NCBI GenBank assembly: GCA_964624165.1 | Contig: CAZUWG010000001.1 | Location: 41,296 to 96,052 of the forward strand | Source: an uncultured Candidatus Saccharibacteria bacterium | GTDB lineage: Bacteria > Patescibacteriota > Minisyncoccia > Phycocordibacterales > UBA918 | DNA length: 54,757 nt | Direction of reading: 5' to 3' | Shown: positions 12,328-26,454 of the stretch, one piece after another | Position numbering within the stretch: position 1 is the first letter of the stretch | Layout: every line of letters starts with the position of its first letter | Made by a program: the position numbers and the translations under genes | Notes under the pieces: generated by a model | What the model saw: the letters and a program-made list of their open reading frames with translations, nothing else | Databases searched by the model: none | What the model was told of the DNA's origin: nothing

Positions 12328-13008
12328 ATGCCACAAATTTCAAAAGACATTATTTTCTACATTCGTGAAAACCCCCTTCAATTTTTTGGTGTCTTCTTTG
12401 TGGTAGTCTTTTTCTCATACCTGTTTCTTTATATAGTCGATTTTTATCCAGAACCAAAAGAACAGACCGCTGTAGAAGAAAGCGAACTCGATGAAATCAC
12501 ACCTGACCGAGACATTCTTTCAGGAGTGGAGGTAACCTCGGATACAAGCAAGGAAGTGAATACTCAGTCTGGTGAATTGCCGATCAAGATCACTTTTGAG
12601 AGCCTTTCGCGTACTGTGACAGTACTCAACTCAGCCTCGGCAGATCTGGCAACACTTGAGGCAGACCTTCAAAAAGGTGTGATTCGCCACCCTGACTCAG
12701 TAAAGCTCGGTGAAAAAGGAAATGTGGTGATCTTGGGTCACTCAAGCTACCTACCAAATGTAATGAACAAAAATTACCAGGCATTTAATGGTATTCAAGA
12801 CTTGATGTGGGGAGACACTATCAGGGTCGCTTCTCTTGATAAGGTATATGTTTATCGTGTGGAGCGCGTGTATAAAGCCACTACAGACGAAGTCGTGCCG
12901 GTAGAGGGTAATGAAAAGACATTGACACTTGTCACTTGCAACGTGTTTGGGGCTAAAGAAGACCGATATATCCTTGAAGCGACGCTGCAGGAGGTAAAAG
13001 ACGCCTAA
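12328..13008 (+). CDS. sortase-family transpeptidase (226 aa)
   Basis: N-terminal TM anchor. Conserved His (VVILGHSSY), TLxTC catalytic Cys (TLVTCN, Cys codon 12936-12938), downstream Arg (RYILEATL). Confidence 0.85.
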   Translation: MPQISKDIIFYIRENPLQFFGVFFVVVFFSYLFLYIVDFYPEPKEQTAVEESELDEITPDRDILSGVEVTSDTSKEVNTQSGELPIKITFESLSRTVTVLNSASADLATLEADLQKGVIRHPDSVKLGEKGNVVILGHSSYLPNVMNKNYQAFNGIQDLMWGDTIRVASLDKVYVYRVERVYKATTDEVVPVEGNEKTLTLVTCNVFGAKEDRYILEATLQEVKDA

Positions 13009-14093: not shown

Positions 14094-16277
14094 ATGATGA
14101 CAACAACATTCAATAAAGTGGCCTTTAGTCTCGTACTCGTCGCATTTGCATTTGGTATTTTTACCTATGTGAGTCAACAAACCAACTTACTTAATGAAGC
14201 ACTTGCTGTTGGTTCGGGAGCAGGTGATGGCGGCTGTTGCGGCGGCGGTTCTGACAATGGCGGCGGTCACGGAAACAACGGTGACCGCGGAGACAACTAT
14301 AATGACTACAACTACCCTAAGGCAGTTTGTGTTATTACCGCGTCTGCGACGTCAGTAGCAGCAGGTGATACCTACACAATCCGATGGAACGGTTCGTATG
14401 GTGCTTTTAAGTACAACGGCGTAAACGTCGGTGATACAGGTTCACGCACTATCACTATGAGGGCAAATGAAACGTCTCGCACTTTTACGTTGACCGGACA
14501 AGGCTTTGACAGCTCGTGTTCAGCAAAAGTAACGGTAAAAAAGAAAGCGGAACCTGCGCCAGTTTGTGAGTCATTTACGATTGCACCAAAGCAGCTTCCA
14601 GCAACTGGAGGCAAGGTAAAGCTTACCTGGGCTACTAAGAACGCGACTAAAGTAACAATCAACAACGGTATCGGCGAAGTAGGTCACGTCACAAATCTTT
14701 CAGGGCGTGGTGAAGATATTGCAGCAAATAATACTACTTCACCAAAAAAGCACACTTACGTACTTACAGCTCACAATGCTGAAGGAAAAAAAGTAAGCTG
14801 TTCTGCTTCTGTAACCGTAAAGGGTAAGGAAGTTGTCGTGCCGAAAGTAATACCAAAGTGTGACTCTTTCTCTATAGATAAAGCGAAAGTATATCCGGGA
14901 GGCAAGGTGACACTGACTTGGAAAACAACAAACGCGACTAAAGTAACGATCAACAACGGTATTGGTCAGGTAGGTCATGAGACAAATCTCTCTGGCCGTC
15001 CACACACCATGCCAAACAGTATCGGCACCTACACCTTTATTCTTACTGCTGAAAGCAAAGATGGCGTCAAGCGATCTTGTCAGGATGTAGTTGAAGTGAT
15101 TAAAAAGCCAGTGACTGAAATCACAGGCTGTACAGATAAAGATGCAACCAACTACAACCCGAAAGCTACTAAGGACGATGGTAGCTGTCACTACGCAAAG
15201 GTCGTACCAAAGTGTGACATGTTTACAGTGAACAAGACACAGGTATACCCTGGTAAAGATGTAGTGTTTACTTGGGAAACAACCAATGCTAGCAAGGTAT
15301 CAATCAATAATGGTATCGGGAACGTAGCTGTCGACAACACTCAAGGACGCACTTACACCATGCCAAACAGCATCGGTACCTACACCTTCGTCTTGACTGC
15401 AGTCAGTAAAGATCAGATTATCCGCACTTGTGAAAAGGTAGTGTATGTCAAAAAGCAGCCAGATCACAAAGTACCCGGCTGTACTGATGTAGATGCAACC
15501 AACTACAACCCGAAAGCTACTGAAGATGATGGAAGTTGTAAGTATAAAGAAGTGGAATACCCAAAGTGTGACTTCCTTCGTGTCAATGATGACGAAGTAC
15601 GCAAGGGAACTGAAGTAACATTGACGTGGGGAACTACGAATGCAGATCGTGTAGAAATCAACAACGGCATTGGTCGTGTTGATGAAGATGGTAACTACGA
15701 TGTAGTAATCAATAATGATACCGATTTCGTTCTGACTGCCTACGGAGATGATGGAAAGAAAGACACGTGTTCAGTTGATGTCAATGTTGAATCAGGCGGC
15801 GGCGGTGGTGGTTCACCACTTCCACGTTGTGAATTGAAGGCCTCTGATCGCAAGATCAAAGCTGGAGAACGAGTCACTCTTGAATGGGAAACTCGATTCG
15901 GACGTGAGCTTACTATCTACGAAGGTGATAAAGATGACGGAGACGACATCTATGACACTGACGATGAAGACGATGTAGAAGAAGGAGAGATTACTGTCCG
16001 TCCCACTCGTGATACAACCTATACATTGGTAGTAGAACGAGGTTCACGAGATCGTGAATGTGATGTTGAGATTGAAGTAGAAGATGATGAGGTGACCGTG
16101 ATCGATGACCGAGACCAAACACCGCGCGTGGCTGGTATCACACTGACACAGGTGCCGTACACTGGCTTTGAAGCTGGTCCAGCACTCACACTCTTGTTTT
16201 ACGCACTCTTGGCACTATGGGGATTGTTTGTGGCATATCACTTTGTCATTCGAAAAAAAGAACAGAAGCTCTACTAG
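14094..16277 (+). CDS. modular cell-surface protein with C-terminal sorting-signal-like tail (727 aa)
   Basis: N-terminal signal/anchor (VAFSLVLVAFAFGIFTYV), Gly/Asn-rich spacer, six Cys-bracketed ~70-80-aa repeats. Tail is an acidic stalk, then QVPYTG + hydrophobic helix + IRKKEQKLY. Confidence 0.85.
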   Translation: MMTTTFNKVAFSLVLVAFAFGIFTYVSQQTNLLNEALAVGSGAGDGGCCGGGSDNGGGHGNNGDRGDNYNDYNYPKAVCVITASATSVAAGDTYTIRWNGSYGAFKYNGVNVGDTGSRTITMRANETSRTFTLTGQGFDSSCSAKVTVKKKAEPAPVCESFTIAPKQLPATGGKVKLTWATKNATKVTINNGIGEVGHVTNLSGRGEDIAANNTTSPKKHTYVLTAHNAEGKKVSCSASVTVKGKEVVVPKVIPKCDSFSIDKAKVYPGGKVTLTWKTTNATKVTINNGIGQVGHETNLSGRPHTMPNSIGTYTFILTAESKDGVKRSCQDVVEVIKKPVTEITGCTDKDATNYNPKATKDDGSCHYAKVVPKCDMFTVNKTQVYPGKDVVFTWETTNASKVSINNGIGNVAVDNTQGRTYTMPNSIGTYTFVLTAVSKDQIIRTCEKVVYVKKQPDHKVPGCTDVDATNYNPKATEDDGSCKYKEVEYPKCDFLRVNDDEVRKGTEVTLTWGTTNADRVEINNGIGRVDEDGNYDVVINNDTDFVLTAYGDDGKKDTCSVDVNVESGGGGGGSPLPRCELKASDRKIKAGERVTLEWETRFGRELTIYEGDKDDGDDIYDTDDEDDVEEGEITVRPTRDTTYTLVVERGSRDRECDVEIEVEDDEVTVIDDRDQTPRVAGITLTQVPYTGFEAGPALTLLFYALLALWGLFVAYHFVIRKKEQKLY
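14328..16061 (+). repeat. in-frame tandem coding repeats (six Ig-like modules plus two CTDxDATNYNPKATxDDGSC mini-modules)
   Basis: Modules bounded by C79/C142, C158/C236, C256/C329, C374/C446, C492/C559, C579/C656. Near-identical DNA blocks, e.g. 15129-15188 vs 15480-15539 and ~14930-14960 vs ~14640-14670. Confidence 0.8.
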
Positions 16278-16283
16278 CTAGCG

Positions 16284-16310
16284 CAAAAGACGCCTCAAAG
16301 GCGTCTTTTG
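16284..16310 (+). terminator. hairpin CAAAAGACGCC-tcaaa-GGCGTCTTTTG 7 nt after the surface-protein stop
   Basis: 11-bp stem read directly. Lies inside the upstream part of ORF 16217..17053. Confidence 0.5.
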
Positions 16311-16465
16311 CAGTAGAGCAGACGGCTCCTGCGTCTCAGGCGACAGCAGTCGAGGCTAGCATCCCCGCACCAACGTACAGTAGTGATATAGCGCCAGTGA
16401 ATCTTCCGATTGAGAAAGAAGAAGCCCCACAGGTGATTGGCTATGCTGCTCGTGAGGTGGATGAA

Positions 16466-17053
16466 ATGATTGAAGAGGTGAAAGAAGTGACGACAGAAAC
16501 AAAAGCAATGCATATGCTCGAGCAGCATGCTCATGAGCACCGAGCTTTGATATCAAGTGATGCCTTGCGTGTGATTGTACGAGATTTACCAACAGAAGGA
16601 GAACGTATCACAAAACTTGATGAGCTTATCGCCGAGGCCAAAGCTGCCTATCCAAGCGAAGATGGGTGGATTGTCCTCAATCTTGAGCGACTTGAAGCAT
16701 TGCTGAAAGCAGAAACCAGTGCCGTTCTCGATGTAGACAATGCTACCGTAGGGGTAGGTTCGCTCGCTGAGGCGATTGCCCTTGGCGATCTCGAGGCAGC
16801 ATACGTACTCATTGGTCGACGACCAATGCTGGCGTTGGCAGACGCCGCCGCCGACTTTGATGCGCTCTATCGAATGCGCCAAGGCGGTGACGAGCAGGTT
16901 TCTTCATTACTTGTGTCAACACTTGGCAATCGTAGTGATGAAGAAGTGGTGGCGGTTGTAAAGACGCTCACCAGTGCGCTTGACGGCACATACACGACCG
17001 AAGTTGATGCAGTGAAGGTGGCGATTATGAAAGCAGTGCGACTTCTTTCATAG
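16466..17053 (+). CDS. hypothetical acidic helical protein (195 aa from ATG 16466; frame open from 16217)
   Basis: ATG 16466 is preceded by GAGGTG at 6-nt spacing. The same frame is open back to 16217 and overlaps the previous CDS, so it may be the C-terminal part of a frameshifted/split gene (see findings). Confidence 0.45.
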   Translation: MIEEVKEVTTETKAMHMLEQHAHEHRALISSDALRVIVRDLPTEGERITKLDELIAEAKAAYPSEDGWIVLNLERLEALLKAETSAVLDVDNATVGVGSLAEAIALGDLEAAYVLIGRRPMLALADAAADFDALYRMRQGGDEQVSSLLVSTLGNRSDEEVVAVVKTLTSALDGTYTTEVDAVKVAIMKAVRLLS

Positions 17054-17070
17054 GTCAGTGTATAGGATAC

Positions 17071-17104
17071 AAAAGGGCCGGGAGCATTTGCTCCCGGCCC
17101 TTTT
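17071..17104. terminator. bidirectional terminator AAAAGGGCCGGGAGC-attt-GCTCCCGGCCCTTTT
   Basis: 15-bp perfect stem between the convergent 16466..17053 (+) and thrS (-). Confidence 0.75.
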
Positions 17105-17119
17105 CCTGTACGTTGTTTT

Positions 17120-18865
17120 TTACAACACCTTCGTATCAATCTCGGTCAAGAGATGGTTGGCGGCGTGTGAGAGCTCCATCAGCTCCGAGGTGCCGTCTCG
17201 TTTTTCAAGTGTGACTTGCTTTGCCTCGGTCTCTTTATCACCAATCACAATAAAGTATGGAAGTTTGGCTTGCTTCGCGCCTCGTATCTTCTTGCCCATA
17301 CTTTCTTTACTGTCATCGAGTTGGACACGGATTCCGGCAGAATGTAGCGCTTTATGCACCTCGTGCGCGTACTCGTAGTGCACTTCATTGACTGGAATAA
17401 TCGCTACTTGCACCGGCGCCAGCCAGAGTGGGAAGTTGCCACCAAGGTGCTCAAAGAGTACGGCTGCAAAACGCTCGACAGAACCCATGATCGCACAGTG
17501 AATCATAACGATGCGCTCTTTCTCACCTGCTTCGTTGATGCAGGTGAGATCAAAACGCTCAGGGAGATTCATATCAAGCTGGATGGTTGCTACTTGATGT
17601 TCTCGACCAAGTGAGTCTTTGGCCATAAAATCGAGTTTTGGTCCGTACATAGCCGCCTCTCCCGGTGCTTCAAAATATTCCGCGCCACGTTCTTTTGCAA
17701 TGTCGCGCAGTGCGTTTTCGGCGTTGTTCCAGATTTCCTTAGTGCCTAAATATTTTTCCATTTCACTTGGCTCGTGGAAGGAAAGGCGAACAAGTATCTC
17801 TGAAAAGCCGAAGGTGGCGTAGAAGGTGTCGACCATATCCCAGATGCGGAAGAATTCTTCCTTGACCTGACTGTGTCGGCAAAAGACATGGCTATCGTCT
17901 TGCGTGATAGAGAGAACGCGTGTGAGACCACCCAATTCTCCAGATTGTTCGTCTCGATACACCATGGTGGTCTCAGCATAGCGTTGCGGCATATCTCGGT
18001 AGCTGTGAGGTTTGCGATCAAATATCTGTGTGTGATGGGGACAGTTCATCGGTTTTAGAGCGTACTCCTTTCCTTCTCGGGTGGTGATACGAAAGAGCTC
18101 GTCCGCAAATTTATCCCAGTGGCCAGACTTTTGGTAAAGGTCTTTTTTAGTGATGTGGGGGATGGTGACACGTTGGTAACCATTTTTTTCACGAAGTTGC
18201 CAGATGTAGGTATCTAAGAGATGACGTACCAAGCTACCGTCTGGTGTCCAGAGCGGTAAGCCAGCACCGACGAGCTCTGAGAAGGTAAAGAGATCCATTT
18301 CTTTCCCTAGTTTCCGATGGTCGCGTTTTTTGGCTTCTTCAAGCTGAGTGATATAGGCGTCCAGCTCGTCTTTCGTATCAAAAGCCAAACCATAGATACG
18401 TGTAAGCATCGGGTTTTTCTCATCACCGCGCCAATACGCGCCGGCAATTTTGTCGAGCTTAAAGGCGTCGGTATTGAGCTCGTCTTTCGGACGCTCTACG
18501 TGTCCGCCACGGCAGAGGTCGGTAAAACCGCCGGCAGTGTAGAGAGTGATTGTCTCACCTTTGGCCTGGATTTCATCAATAAGCTCAAGCTTAAATTTAT
18601 TATCTGCAAAGTGTTTGCGAGCATCTTCAGCAGATACTTCTACATGAGAAAAAACGTCCCATTTGTTGAGGAGTTTCTTCATGGTTTTTTGAAGTAGTTT
18701 CAGATCGTCTTCGCCAGGCGTCTCTCCTTTGCTAAAGTCGATATCATAATAAAATCCAGTGTCGGTCGCAGGGCCGAGGGTCAGCTTGGCTTGCGGATAA
18801 TGCTCTAAGACCGCCGCCGCTAAGAGGTGGGCCAGGGTGTGTCGCTTATGTTCGAGAGTGTTCAT
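17120..18865 (-). CDS. thrS: threonine--tRNA ligase lacking the N-terminal TGS domain (581 aa)
   Basis: Begins MNTLEHKRHTLAHLLAAAV (second additional/editing domain HxxxH). Class II core and anticodon-binding domain. The 64 upstream codons in the ORF track are a T-box leader. Confidence 0.93.
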   Translation of the reverse strand: MNTLEHKRHTLAHLLAAAVLEHYPQAKLTLGPATDTGFYYDIDFSKGETPGEDDLKLLQKTMKKLLNKWDVFSHVEVSAEDARKHFADNKFKLELIDEIQAKGETITLYTAGGFTDLCRGGHVERPKDELNTDAFKLDKIAGAYWRGDEKNPMLTRIYGLAFDTKDELDAYITQLEEAKKRDHRKLGKEMDLFTFSELVGAGLPLWTPDGSLVRHLLDTYIWQLREKNGYQRVTIPHITKKDLYQKSGHWDKFADELFRITTREGKEYALKPMNCPHHTQIFDRKPHSYRDMPQRYAETTMVYRDEQSGELGGLTRVLSITQDDSHVFCRHSQVKEEFFRIWDMVDTFYATFGFSEILVRLSFHEPSEMEKYLGTKEIWNNAENALRDIAKERGAEYFEAPGEAAMYGPKLDFMAKDSLGREHQVATIQLDMNLPERFDLTCINEAGEKERIVMIHCAIMGSVERFAAVLFEHLGGNFPLWLAPVQVAIIPVNEVHYEYAHEVHKALHSAGIRVQLDDSKESMGKKIRGAKQAKLPYFIVIGDKETEAKQVTLEKRDGTSELMELSHAANHLLTEIDTKVL

Positions 18866-19068
18866 AGTAGAGATAGTATAATTTTTAAAAATAAATAGCC
18901 CGCGCAAAATCCAAAACAACGTTTGAATTTTGCGCGGGCGATCTAGCCGCGGTTCCACCGCGCTTCCAGGATAATCCTGGCACTTGATTGTACAGATTAG
19001 AAGGTGGTTGCCTTGGGCGCGAGATTCGCTAGCGCCCTGACGGTTGGTAGCCATCACAATCTCTGCGT
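18866..19068 (-). promoter_or_regulatory. T-box riboswitch leader (threonine specifier) of thrS
   Basis: On the minus strand: Stem I with candidate specifier ACC+A (19008-19005) and Stem III CCAGGA-uua-UCCUGG (18966-18980). T-box GCGCGG-UGGAACC-GCG..CGC-CCGCGC (~18933-18963) forms a canonical antiterminator with 7-nt bulge. A competing terminator GCCCGCGCAAAAU...AUUUUGCGCGGGC (18898-18939) is followed by a U-run. Confidence 0.75.
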
Positions 19069-25557: not shown

Positions 25558-26454
25558 ATGGCCAATCGACATCTTTCTCGTTCATTAGTTCTTCAAACTC
25601 TTTTTGAGTGGGATATTAATGGTGTAGAACGAAAAGCAATTAAAGAGACATTAGTGCGCAACGTCGAAGAGTTTGCTCCCAATAGCTCGGACCTGCCTTT
25701 TATGGAGAAGCTCCTTGATGGTATTATTGGAAAGCAAAGCGAGCTTGATCTTGTGATTGAGAAGGCGGCGCCTGAGTGGCCGATCGATCGCATTGCGCCG
25801 GTTGATAGAAACATCCTTCGACTTGGTTTGTTTGAACTTTTATTTTCAGATCGAAAAGAAGTGCCGGCCAAAGTGGCAATCAATGAAGCGATTGAGCTCG
25901 CAAAACAATTTGGCAGTGAAAATAGTAGCCGCTTCGTGAACGGCGTCTTAGGTGCAGTGTATAAAGAGATTGGTGAGCCGGGCAAAGATGAACAAGGCAA
26001 AAAACCAAAAAAAAATATTCCGTACGAGCAGATGCCGATTAAGCGCCTGGCGGGTGCGGTGGTGTATGCTGAGCACGAAGGTGAAATATTCTTTGCGCTC
26101 GTCCATGATATTTTTGGCCACTGGACGCTCCCTAAAGGGGGAGTAGAGGAAGGAGTAGCGATGGAAGAGGGTGCAAAATTAAAAATCAAAGAGGAGATTG
26201 GTATCGATATTACCATTGAAAAAGAATTGGGTAACAATGAGTATATCGCCAATAAGCCTGATATTGGTAAGCATCGCAAACAAGTGATGTACTTCCTGGG
26301 GCGGGCAGACTTTGTGGAGTTGGAGCTTGAAAAGAAAGGCGGGCTTGATGATGCGCAGTGGTTTAAGATTTCTGATATTCTCGAGTTAAATTTTTATGAA
26401 GATATTCTGCCGATTGTCACGAAAGCAGTGACTATCGTAGTGTCAAAAAAATAG
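25558..26454 (+). CDS. nusB: NusB antitermination factor fused to a C-terminal Nudix-fold domain (298 aa)
   Basis: aa 1-135 are NusB-like (DRIAPVDRNILRLGLFELLF, VAINEAIELAKQFG..SSRFVNGVLGAV). A K-rich linker follows. aa ~165-298 are Nudix-fold (GHWTLPKGGVEEGVAMEEGAKLKIKEEIGI). Confidence 0.85.
   Translation: MANRHLSRSLVLQTLFEWDINGVERKAIKETLVRNVEEFAPNSSDLPFMEKLLDGIIGKQSELDLVIEKAAPEWPIDRIAPVDRNILRLGLFELLFSDRKEVPAKVAINEAIELAKQFGSENSSRFVNGVLGAVYKEIGEPGKDEQGKKPKKNIPYEQMPIKRLAGAVVYAEHEGEIFFALVHDIFGHWTLPKGGVEEGVAMEEGAKLKIKEEIGIDITIEKELGNNEYIANKPDIGKHRKQVMYFLGRADFVELELEKKGGLDDAQWFKISDILELNFYEDILPIVTKAVTIVVSKK

What the first reader, a model, noticed from the sequence alone, without database searches (positions are those of the whole stretch)
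16217..16466. A7 tract in the overlap between the surface-protein ORF and the next ORF: possible -1 frameshift, phase-variable or split-gene junction
The 727-aa surface-protein frame stops at 16275-16277, but a second frame is open from 16217 to 17053 and overlaps it by 61 nt. The overlap contains cgA-AAA-AAA-g (A7, 16253-16259). In the zero frame this is an A_AAA_AAA heptamer, the same class as the classical dnaX A_AAA_AAG -1 slippery site. A -1 slip would read ...HFVIRKK|RTEALLASAKDASK... and continue for 264 codons, giving a ~986-aa product. The second frame stays stop-free for 83 codons upstream of its first SD-preceded ATG (16466). That is roughly a 2% event for random sequence, (61/64)^83. 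The stretch translates to a linker-like A/P/S/T/E-rich peptide (AVEQTAPASQATAVEASIPAPTYSS...). A terminator-like hairpin (16284-16310) follows the A-run by ~25 nt. Three readings are possible. (i) An ancestral single gene (repeats - VPYTG - TM - linker - helical C-domain) was split by a 1-nt homopolymer indel, through assembly error, decay or phase variation. (ii) Programmed frameshifting gives a short sortable form and a long form with a cytoplasmic domain. (iii) They are two independent genes. Caveat: A7-A8 runs are common in this genome, e.g. several in trmD.
Basis: partly seen in the sequence, partly recalled or inferred. Interest (0 to 1): 0.7.

Follow-up and report, generated by a model that had tools for sequence, protein, structure and literature searches.

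The report
Programmed -1 frameshift in surface-protein gene
The two overlapping reading frames are one gene of a tiny symbiotic-type bacterium (Patescibacteria): an A7 slippery site plus a conserved RNA hairpin most likely let some ribosomes shift frame, giving a short surface protein and a long form with an added cytoplasmic domain.

Summary
ORF1 (14094-16277) and the -1 frame (open to 17053) overlap around A7 (16253-16259), phased as A_AAA_AAA. Among 142 distinct related loci, 120 encode repeats, VPYTGFEAGP, a membrane helix, a linker and a helical C-domain as one ORF. The 986-aa trans-frame product aligns end to end with such a protein. Twenty-one loci are split. All 21 need a -1 shift and all have A7 or A9 in the frame overlap, at four different positions. 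None is +1, none lacks a run, and no in-frame A10 exists. Within each class synonymous sites are saturated, yet the run, the ORF layout and the C-domain are kept. This excludes assembly error and decay, and argues against phase variation. Five relatives with the window's layout share CGAAAAAAAGA, an 8-nt spacer and a 22-bp stem-loop (16268-16319, -32 kcal/mol, z -6.5). All 12 amino-acid-invariant codons in that stretch are nucleotide-identical, against 9 of 117 elsewhere. The ATG at 16466 is not conserved. Best reading: a dnaX-like programmed -1 ribosomal frameshift; relatives with A9 may use transcriptional slippage. No expression data exist. This is a new member of a known kind.

The parts
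12328..13008 (+). Sortase gene, the likely dedicated partner of the VPYTG protein
   Evidence: PF04203 Sortase E 1e-19. A homolog lies upstream on the same strand in 59 of 70 related loci that have at least 3.5 kb of upstream flank.
14094..16277 (+). Zero-frame ORF (727 aa). It has an N-terminal signal or anchor helix, repeated extracellular modules, VPYTG, a hydrophobic helix and the tail RKKEQKLY. This is the short isoform, whose C-terminus looks like a cell-wall sorting signal.
   Evidence: It aligns with the N-terminal two thirds of single-ORF homologs.
16152..16181 (+). VPYTGFEAGP motif, an LPXTG-like sortase signal that is nearly invariant in the family
   Evidence: Motif found in frame in about 140 related loci.
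16182..16250 (+). Transmembrane helix ALTLLFYALLALWGLFVAYHFVI
   Evidence: Read from the translation; conserved in homologs.
16253..16259 (+). Slippery heptamer A_AAA_AAA (CGA AAA AAA G in the zero frame), the proposed -1 shift site
   Evidence: CGAAAAAAAGA is identical in five class I sequences from independent samples. In the closest relative Lys codons elsewhere are only 18% AAA.
16260..16267 (+). 8-nt spacer between the shift site and the stem-loop
16268..16319 (+). Bipartite stem-loop, the proposed frameshift stimulator. The outer stem pairs 16268-16275 with 16312-16319. The inner stem pairs 16283-16295 with 16299-16311. The zero-frame stop TAG (16275-16277) lies at the 3' end of the outer 5' arm.
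   Evidence: MFE -32.2 kcal/mol, z -6.5, 0 of 200 shuffles as stable. The consensus fold is kept in 5 sequences with 2 compensatory pairs. In this stretch 12 of 12 amino-acid-invariant codons are nucleotide-identical, against 9 of 117 in the rest of ORF2, Fisher p 1e-11.
16259..17053 (+). -1 frame coding sequence (264 codons plus stop) that completes the 986-aa long isoform: linker plus helical cytoplasmic C-domain
   Evidence: Collinear with single-ORF homologs in one HSP that crosses the junction without a gap. Linker pN/pS is 0.42 (corrected ratio 0.2), while the other two frames have 5-7 stops. C-domain ratio is about 0.1-0.2.
16394..16444 (+). Conserved linker motif P.NLP...GY (PVNLPIEKEEAPQVIGY), encoded upstream of ATG 16466 in the -1 frame
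   Evidence: The motif is present in fused homologs and in the 2-TM variants. No start codon lies between the A-run and this motif in the window.
16466..17050 (+). C-terminal all-helical domain. The ATG at 16466 with GAGGTG at 16454-16459 is a possible internal start, but it is specific to this genome.
   Evidence: AF2 model pLDDT 88.8. The family has 498 clusters and the domain is always C-terminal. The Met is replaced by Val/Thr and other residues in the four other class I sequences.
17056..17115 (.). Strong hairpin with flanking A and T runs after the ORF2 stop. It is the likely bidirectional terminator shared with the convergent thrS gene and marks the end of the transcription unit.
   Evidence: dG -42 kcal/mol, z -9.2.

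Best explanation
ORF1 and ORF2 are one gene. Standard decoding stops at TAG 16275 and gives a 727-aa protein. Its C-terminus (VPYTG, hydrophobic helix, RKKEQKLY) looks like a sortase sorting signal. A fraction of ribosomes slips -1 on A_AAA_AAA (16253-16259), paused by the stem-loop that starts 8 nt downstream (16268-16319). These ribosomes continue for 264 codons and give a 986-aa protein that carries a linker and a helical cytoplasmic domain behind the membrane helix. This long form matches the single-ORF protein found in most relatives. Shown: the single-gene ancestry, long-term conservation of the shift site, the ORF layout and the stem-loop, and purifying selection on the -1 frame. Inferred: that the shift is ribosomal rather than made by RNA polymerase, its efficiency, and that both products are used. 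In sister lineages the same gene carries an A9 run at one of three other positions. There transcriptional slippage is as likely as ribosomal slippage.
For: (1) 120 of 142 distinct related loci encode one ORF. The trans-frame product aligns over residues 2-986 with the single ORF of L007, E 4e-171, with no gap at the junction. (2) All 21 split loci need -1, and all have A7 (6) or A9 (15) inside the frame overlap, at four different positions. In two of them the downstream frame opens exactly at the run. There is no +1 case, no split without a run and no in-frame A10. (3) Within-class pairs have saturated synonymous sites (pS 0.59-0.86). The C-domain has pN 0.13-0.41 and the linker between the run and ATG 16466 has pN/pS 0.42, whereas the other frames contain stops. 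(4) Lys codons elsewhere in these genes are 44% AAA, yet every run is pure A. (5) Five class I sequences share CGAAAAAAAGA, an 8-nt spacer and the stem-loop (dG -32, z -6.5). Codons there are identical in 12 of 12 cases against 9 of 117 elsewhere, p 1e-11. (6) ATG 16466 and the ATG/TTG/CTG at 16217 are not conserved as starts. The conserved P.NLP...GY motif lies upstream of any usable start. (7) These features meet the comparative criterion of Baranov et al. 2005 for functional slippage: conserved overlapping ORFs plus a conserved run (PMC1088944).
Against: There is no expression evidence of any kind: no reads, RNA-seq, Ribo-seq or peptides. Covariation in the stem-loop is thin. Only 2 compensatory pairs were found in 5 sequences, 17 of 22 pairs never vary, and the shuffle control is not decisive. 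The support is therefore conservation rather than covariation. There is no upstream Shine-Dalgarno-like stimulator as in dnaX. The zero-frame stop lies inside the stem, so the structure could instead serve termination-reinitiation or mRNA stability. In this genome an SD-preceded ATG (16466) could give an independent C-domain. One class III relative with A7 (L166) has no significant downstream structure. No Rfam family matches.
Confidence: 0.6

Rival explanations
1. The recoding is programmed, but RNA polymerase does it. Slippage on the A-run adds one A to part of the transcripts, and standard translation of those transcripts gives the long form. The stem-loop has another role.
For: 15 of 21 split relatives carry A9, the classic slippage length (PMC1088944). 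Classes II and IV have no conserved downstream structure.
Against: The window and its four closest relatives have only A7, which is fixed, in the exact X_XXY_YYZ phase, and followed by a conserved stem-loop at PRF spacing. Known stimulators of slippage lie 5' of the run, not 3' (own knowledge of Penno et al. 2015).
Confidence: 0.15
2. An old gene fission produced two independent genes. ORF1 is a complete sortase substrate. ORF2 is translated on its own from 16466 or by reinitiation after the ORF1 stop. The A-run is only the scar of the mutation.
For: GAGGTG-N6-ATG at 16466. Gene callers annotate ORF2-like proteins separately. The C-domain stays under selection in either scenario.
Against: The start is not conserved even in the closest relatives. 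The stretch 16259-16465 is under protein-level constraint and holds the family motif, with no start upstream of it. A scar would not stay a pure A-run through saturated synonymous divergence. The motif P.NLP..GY sits upstream of the break in class IV and downstream in classes I-III, which makes sense only for one polypeptide. All 21 cases are -1.
Confidence: 0.12
3. The locus is phase-variable. Slipped-strand mispairing at the A-run switches the cytoplasmic domain ON (A8/A10) and OFF (A7/A9) within populations.
For: Homopolymer switches in surface-protein genes are common, including sortase-dependent pilus genes of Bifidobacterium breve (PMC5009743). Consensus assemblies could hide minority variants.
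Against: Tract length is fixed: A7 in 6 of 6 and A9 in 15 of 15. No in-frame A8 or A10 occurs at any of the four sites in 142 loci, and no +1-frame OFF state occurs. A junction-peptide search found no fused class I protein. A7 is a weakly mutable tract. The conserved stem-loop has no role in this model.
Confidence: 0.08
4. The split is a sequencing or assembly error at a homopolymer, or the gene is a recent pseudogene.
For: Homopolymers are error-prone. One related contig (L167) may come from a long-read assembly.
Against: The same configuration appears in 21 loci from many studies and assemblers. Five independent class I samples agree. No A10 is seen anywhere. The downstream frame is under purifying selection. 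A real decayed copy (L080) looks different, with several frameshifts away from A-runs.
Confidence: 0.03

Closest known systems
E. coli dnaX tau/gamma programmed -1 ribosomal frameshift (A_AAA_AAG, 3' stem-loop, upstream SD)
   Same: All-A/Lys heptamer in phase, a stable stem-loop a few nucleotides downstream, two products from one non-mobile chromosomal gene, and a stop close to the shift site in one frame.
   Different: Here the zero frame gives the short product and the shift gives the long one, the reverse of E. coli dnaX. There is no upstream SD-like element. The spacer is 8 nt against 6 nt. The gene family is unrelated: a surface or membrane protein of Patescibacteria.
Thermus thermophilus dnaX, Shigella mxiE and IS-element transcriptional slippage at A9/T9
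   Same: Relatives of the window's gene (classes II-IV) carry a conserved A9 in the overlap of two conserved ORFs. This is the criterion used by Baranov et al. 2005 (PMC1088944). As in mxiE, slippage would extend the product.
   Different: The window itself has only A7 plus a 3' structure. Slippage has not been shown for any member.
IS3-family (IS911, IS150) orfA-orfB -1 frameshift
   Same: A_AAA_AAG/A heptamer plus a 3' stem-loop. The fusion protein is the frameshift product and the upstream ORF product is also made.
   Different: This is not a mobile element. There is a single copy, syntenic with the sortase gene and thrS across species.
Poly(A)-interrupted genes rescued by polymerase infidelity in Buchnera and Blochmannia; interrupted sortase-dependent pilus genes of Bifidobacterium breve
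   Same: A reduced-genome bacterium, a homopolymer-interrupted envelope or surface gene, and annotation as split or pseudogene (PMC5009743).
   Different: Here the interruption is conserved across saturated divergence, is always -1, recurs at four sites and, in class I, comes with a dedicated RNA structure. That pattern indicates selection for the configuration rather than tolerated damage.
Sortase substrates with a C-terminal cell-wall sorting signal (LPXTG, hydrophobic segment, basic tail)
   Same: The zero-frame product ends exactly like one (VPYTG, 23 hydrophobic residues, RKKEQKLY), and a sortase gene is adjacent.
   Different: In most family members, and in the frameshift product, about 260 further residues follow the 'tail', including a folded domain. 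Classical sorting signals are not known to have this (own knowledge).

Membership tests
Programmed -1 ribosomal frameshift cassette (dnaX / IS3 type) | X_XXY_YYZ slippery heptamer in the zero-frame phase | tested here: met
   CGA AAA AAA G: A_AAA_AAA at 16253-16259. The same phase is found in all 5 class I sequences.
Programmed -1 ribosomal frameshift cassette (dnaX / IS3 type) | Stable 3' RNA structure 5-9 nt downstream of the heptamer | tested here: met
   Stem-loop 16268-16319, 8-nt spacer, -32.2 kcal/mol, z -6.5. It is conserved in 5 sequences.
Programmed -1 ribosomal frameshift cassette (dnaX / IS3 type) | Suppressed synonymous variation or covariation at the signal | tested here: met
   12 of 12 against 9 of 117 identical codons, p 1e-11. 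Covariation alone is weak: 2 compensatory pairs.
Programmed -1 ribosomal frameshift cassette (dnaX / IS3 type) | Overlapping-ORF layout conserved in diverged homologs, and trans-frame product homologous to single-ORF proteins | tested here: met
Programmed -1 ribosomal frameshift cassette (dnaX / IS3 type) | Upstream Shine-Dalgarno-like stimulator (present in dnaX and IS911, not obligatory) | tested here: not met
   No GGAGG-like element in the 20 nt upstream of the heptamer.
Programmed -1 ribosomal frameshift cassette (dnaX / IS3 type) | Trans-frame protein detected, with efficiency dependent on heptamer and structure | not testable with these tools
   Needs a reporter assay, proteomics or Ribo-seq.
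Programmed transcriptional slippage | Homopolymer of about 9 or more A/T in the ORF overlap | tested here: not met
   The window has A7. The feature is met in 15 related loci with A9.
Programmed transcriptional slippage | Heterogeneous run length in mRNA but not in DNA | not testable with these tools
   Needs paired metagenome and metatranscriptome reads.
Phase-variable contingency locus (slipped-strand mispairing) | Tract length differs between close relatives or within populations, with both ON and OFF lengths seen | tested here: not met
   A7 in 6 of 6 and A9 in 15 of 15, with no in-frame A8/A10 and no +1 state in 142 loci. No fused class I protein was found in the protein search. Read-level heterogeneity was not testable.
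Sortase substrate (cell-wall sorting signal) | LPXTG-like motif, hydrophobic segment, short basic tail at the C-terminus | tested here: met
   Met for the zero-frame product only: VPYTG, 23 hydrophobic residues, RKKEQKLY*. The long form and the fused homologs continue for about 260 residues, so for them the 'short tail' feature is not met.
Sortase substrate (cell-wall sorting signal) | Cognate sortase encoded nearby | tested here: met
   PF04203 at 12328-13008; present in 59 of 70 related loci.
Sortase substrate (cell-wall sorting signal) | Cleavage at T-G and attachment to the envelope | not testable with these tools
   Biochemical.

The most novel reading that the evidence does not exclude
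A widespread Patescibacteria protein family places a folded cytoplasmic domain behind what looks like a sortase sorting signal. Several lineages have independently, at four positions in the same linker, evolved a -1 recoding switch (A7 plus stem-loop, or A9). The switch would set the ratio between a classical, releasable sortase substrate and a full-length trans-envelope form. Recoding would then tune the coupling between surface display and an intracellular function in these symbiotic-type, reduced-genome bacteria.
Probability: 0.35. Interest if true: 0.8.

Novelty: new member of a known kind. Interest (0 to 1): 0.68.

Why it matters
Conserved programmed frameshifts in non-mobile bacterial chromosomal genes are few (dnaX, copA, prfB and a handful of others). 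Full-text searches found no paper on one in Patescibacteria. This case has unusually clean comparative support. It shows the same outcome reached at four sites in one gene, apparently by two kinds of signal. It also corrects annotation: dozens of database 'hypothetical proteins' of 180-280 aa are the 3' parts of recoded genes, and the upstream ORFs are not truncated. It also points to an uncharacterised sortase-linked envelope protein family with a cytoplasmic domain. That bears on how these small-genome bacteria, many of them thought to live attached to host cells, build and regulate their surface.

Tried and rejected
Pfam and NCBIfam gave no hit for ORF1 or ORF2. Rfam gave no family for the stem-loop; only chance-level hits appeared.

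The simple terminator scan did not call the hairpin. No U-tract follows the outer stem, so an intrinsic terminator is unlikely.

I looked for conserved 3' structures in the A9 classes. None was found in class II. Class IV has only variable hairpins. In class III a GCUGG...CCAGC hairpin lies 8 nt after the run in about 4 of 7 sequences but is not significant.

I checked whether other A/T runs in the window mark frame transitions. Only 16253 does. The A7 at 26445 is an ordinary gene end, between the nusB-Nudix gene and rnc.

A search for a fused class I variant (A8) with the junction peptide found none, but that search has limited sensitivity.

Function of the C-domain remains open. The PDB sequence search gave only OSCP at E 0.05. 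Foldseek gave clamp-loader domains at E 1e-3 and TM 0.4 with rmsd 17 A. Both are too weak to use.

My first estimate of pN/pS for the 3' end of ORF1 (0.9) probably reflects misalignment of the repeats and was not used.

Literature searches for Patescibacteria combined with slippage or frameshift returned nothing relevant.
Full report
**1. The observation**

The coordinates and frames are as described. ORF1 runs 14094-16277 (727 aa) and ends ...VPYTGFEAGP-ALTLLFYALLALWGLFVAYHFVI-RKKEQKLY*. A second frame, -1 relative to ORF1, has an ATG at 16217 and a stop at 17051-17053; stop-to-stop it is open from 16172. The A7 lies at 16253-16259 and reads CGA AAA AAA GAA in the zero frame, so it is an in-phase A_AAA_AAA heptamer.

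A/T runs of 7 or more are common in the window: 40 in 54.7 kb against about 8 expected. The A7 alone is therefore weak evidence. Of those 40 runs, only this one lies where a long upstream frame hands over to a long downstream frame. A second candidate at 26445 is an ordinary gene end.

**2. What the relatives encode**

ORF2 has no Pfam or NCBIfam match. It does have hundreds of homologs in Patescibacteria, annotated as Kaiserbacteria, Nomurabacteria and Paceibacteria. A profile search finds 498 clusters at 50% identity. The domain is always at the extreme C-terminus, mostly of proteins of 600-1900 aa.

Reading the sequences showed that many homologs are single proteins with this order: repeats, (V/L)PYTGFEAGP, membrane helix, R/K, linker with a P.NLP...GY motif, helical C-domain.

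I fetched 80 loci from species-representative genomes, 80 from metagenomes and 9 more by exact protein look-up. Each locus was classified by the frame of the PYTG motif relative to the frame of the C-domain. Among the 142 non-duplicate loci with the motif in reach:
- 120 are fused.
- 21, including the window, are split.
- 1 has an in-frame stop.

The window's 986-aa trans-frame product is 14094-16259 joined to 16259-17050. It aligns over residues 2-986 with the single ORF of L007 in one HSP (39% identity, E 4e-171), with no gap at the junction. The ancestral state is one gene.

**3. The split loci follow a rule**

All 21 split loci need a -1 shift. All have a poly-A run inside the overlap of the two open frames. 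None needs +1, and none lacks a run. The runs fall at four positions:

| Class | Position | Run and context | Loci |
|---|---|---|---|
| I | Directly after the membrane helix | A7, CGA AAA AAA G | window, L001, L163, L164, L165 |
| II | Same place | A9, zero-frame end ...KKKVS* or ...KKKRS* | L002, L013, L045, L111; five more ORF1 proteins end in KKKVS |
| III | Mid-linker | A9 (A7 in L166), followed by a conserved zero-frame tail ...MLAAKHSHQPWN* | L043, L069, L101, L124, L166, L167, L169 |
| IV | Just before the C-domain | A9, GAA AAA AAA ACG/ATG | L052, L063, L071, L106, L168 |

In L052 and L071 the downstream frame opens exactly at the run.

Fused loci also contain in-frame runs (A7 four times, A8 three times, A9 twice). 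No locus has A10. A systematic A10-to-A9 under-call is therefore not credible, and neither is an unseen A10 'ON' state.

Seven of the 21 split loci were chosen because their proteins looked short. The unbiased frequency from the two scans is about 8%. Every 'C-domain-only' protein I looked up turned out to be such a split.

By contrast, a truly decayed copy (L080) has several frameshifts away from A-runs, and L088 has a nonsense codon.

**4. The configuration is old and under selection**

Window against L001 gives pS 0.68, which is saturated. Even so, both have the same A7, the same zero-frame tail (EQKLY*) and the same layout.
- The 67 codons between the run and ATG 16466 have pN 0.29 (pN/pS 0.42; Jukes-Cantor ratio 0.2) in the ORF2 frame. 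The other two frames carry 5-7 stops and ratios of 1-2.
- The C-domain ratio is about 0.1.
- All other within-class pairs show pS 0.59-0.86 with C-domain pN 0.13-0.41.

In an NJ tree of the C-domain, classes I and II are each monophyletic. Class IV is interleaved with fused relatives, and class III is scattered. The trans-frame peptide of class IV (GYDAYVEKK|NDDEVDQSIEMTELEN) is collinear with fused neighbours (GYAAVEETDEVDESIAMTELEN).

Lys codons elsewhere in these genes are 44% AAA, and 18% in L001. Yet every run is uninterrupted. At saturated synonymous divergence, that requires selection on the homopolymer itself.

**5. The class I cassette**

The outer stem pairs 16268-16275 with 16312-16319. 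The inner stem pairs 16283-16295 with 16299-16311. The free energy is -32.2 kcal/mol, z -6.5, and 0 of 200 dinucleotide shuffles fold as well.

The structure starts 8 nt after the heptamer, which is the canonical spacing for -1 frameshift stimulators (own knowledge of dnaX and IS911).

Five sequences from independent samples share CGAAAAAAAGA, the spacer length and the fold. Two base pairs show compensatory changes (A-U, G-C and C-G at one pair; U-A and C-G at another). With five sequences, covariation statistics are not decisive.

Synonymous-site suppression is decisive. In the first 21 codons after the shift, 12 of 12 amino-acid-invariant codons are nucleotide-identical in all five sequences. 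In the rest of ORF2 the figure is 9 of 117 (Fisher p 1e-11). Most of that stretch (16278-16319) is not dual-coding, so the constraint is on the RNA.

There is no U-tract after the outer stem, so it is not a typical intrinsic terminator. The real terminator of the unit is the -42 kcal/mol hairpin after the ORF2 stop. Rfam has no matching family.

**6. No conserved independent start**

The ATG at 16466, with GAGGTG 6 nt upstream, is unique to the window. The equivalent residues are V-T, V-I and others in the other class I sequences.

The ATG at 16217 is a by-product of the conserved Leu-Trp codons of the membrane helix. It is TTG or CTG in relatives and has no SD.

The conserved P.NLP...GY motif (16394-16444) lies upstream of any usable start.

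In class IV the same motif lies upstream of the break, in ORF1. Only a single polypeptide reconciles the classes.

**7. Context**

A sortase gene (12328-13008, PF04203) lies upstream. A homolog is present on the same strand in 59 of 70 related loci with enough flank. VPYTG is therefore very likely its recognition motif.

The zero-frame product ends like a classical sorting signal. The long form, like the fused proteins of most species, carries about 260 further residues on the cytoplasmic side.

The C-domain model is confident (pLDDT 88.8) and all-helical with two lobes. Structural and sequence matches are too weak to assign a function.

**8. Mechanism**

Shown:
- The two ORFs descend from one gene.
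- The frameshift configuration is ancient.
- The configuration recurs and is always -1 at an A-run.
- The downstream frame is translated as protein from the run onward.
- Class I has a conserved RNA structure at frameshift-stimulator spacing.

Inferred:
- Ribosomes slip -1 on A_AAA_AAA in the window (0.6).
- RNA polymerase slippage is the alternative recoding route (0.15) and is at least as likely for the A9 classes.
- Both isoforms are functional.

Remaining rivals are independent genes (0.12), phase variation (0.08) and error or pseudogene (0.03).

**9. Comparison with known systems and novelty**

The cassette works like E. coli dnaX or IS3-family orfAB, with a Lys heptamer and a 3' stem-loop. 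The A9 relatives resemble Thermus dnaX, mxiE and IS-element slippage (PMC5009743, PMC1088944, PMC4066793). It differs in three ways: the gene family, the absence of an upstream SD, and the shift producing the long form.

Full-text searches found no paper on recoding in Patescibacteria. I class it as a new member of a known kind. Two features are unusual: the switch arose at four sites in one linker, and it sits right behind a sortase sorting signal.

Noticed in passing
window 26007-26015 (inside ORF 25558-26454): The only A9 in the window lies in frame in the linker (GKKPKKNIP) between a NusB domain (residues 7-136) and a NUDIX domain (165-282) of one fused ORF. One extra A in the mRNA, or a -1 slip, would read PKKKYSVRADAD* and give a NusB-only product. 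The layout resembles Thermus dnaX.
   Followed up: partly
window 12328-13008 and 14094-17053; related loci L003-L162: The sortase gene and the VPYTGFEAGP protein gene form a conserved pair (59 of 70 loci). In most species the 'sorting signal' is followed by a linker of about 70 aa and a folded domain of about 190 aa. This is not the classical short basic tail.
   Followed up: partly
L025, L028, L031, L128 (and P0019, P0055, P0074, P0076, P0085): A variant architecture of about 320-340 aa has no extracellular repeats and no PYTG. It has two N-terminal membrane helices, the second resembling the post-PYTG helix, then the same linker motif and C-domain.
   Followed up: no
L043, L069, L101, L124, L166, L167, L169 (class III): The zero-frame tail after the A-run is itself conserved (K-K-V-x-M-L-A-A-K-H/Y-S-x-Q-P-W-N-stop). 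It overlaps a GCUGG...CCAGC hairpin 8 nt after the run in about 4 of 7 members. Whether the constraint is on the peptide, the RNA or both is open.
   Followed up: partly
L041:3815 (also L006:3826): Some fused relatives carry an in-frame A9 at the same post-helix position (VAKKKLTT). There a -1 slip would end the protein four codons later (KKKTNHN*). The same two products could thus arise with the opposite default.
   Followed up: no
L080:3626-4076 and L088:1-239: These are examples of real damage in the family. L080 has several frameshifts inside the C-domain, away from A-runs. L088 has a TAG inside the membrane helix.
   Followed up: no
window 17056-17115: A very stable hairpin (-42 kcal/mol, z -9.2) flanked by A and T runs lies between the convergent ORF2 and thrS (17120-19057, minus strand). 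It is probably a bidirectional terminator.
   Followed up: partly
whole window: A/T homopolymers of 7 or more are about five times more frequent than expected from base composition (40 against about 8). A-runs on the plus strand outnumber T-runs 28 to 12. Nearly all lie in frame within ordinary genes.
   Followed up: partly
window 16466-17050 (model m7e4426e6bf6a): The C-domain model has weak Foldseek similarity to domains II-III of clamp-loader gamma and delta subunits (E 1e-3, TM about 0.4, rmsd about 17 A) and a weak sequence hit to ATP synthase OSCP (E 0.05). Both are probably generic helical-bundle resemblance.
   Followed up: no
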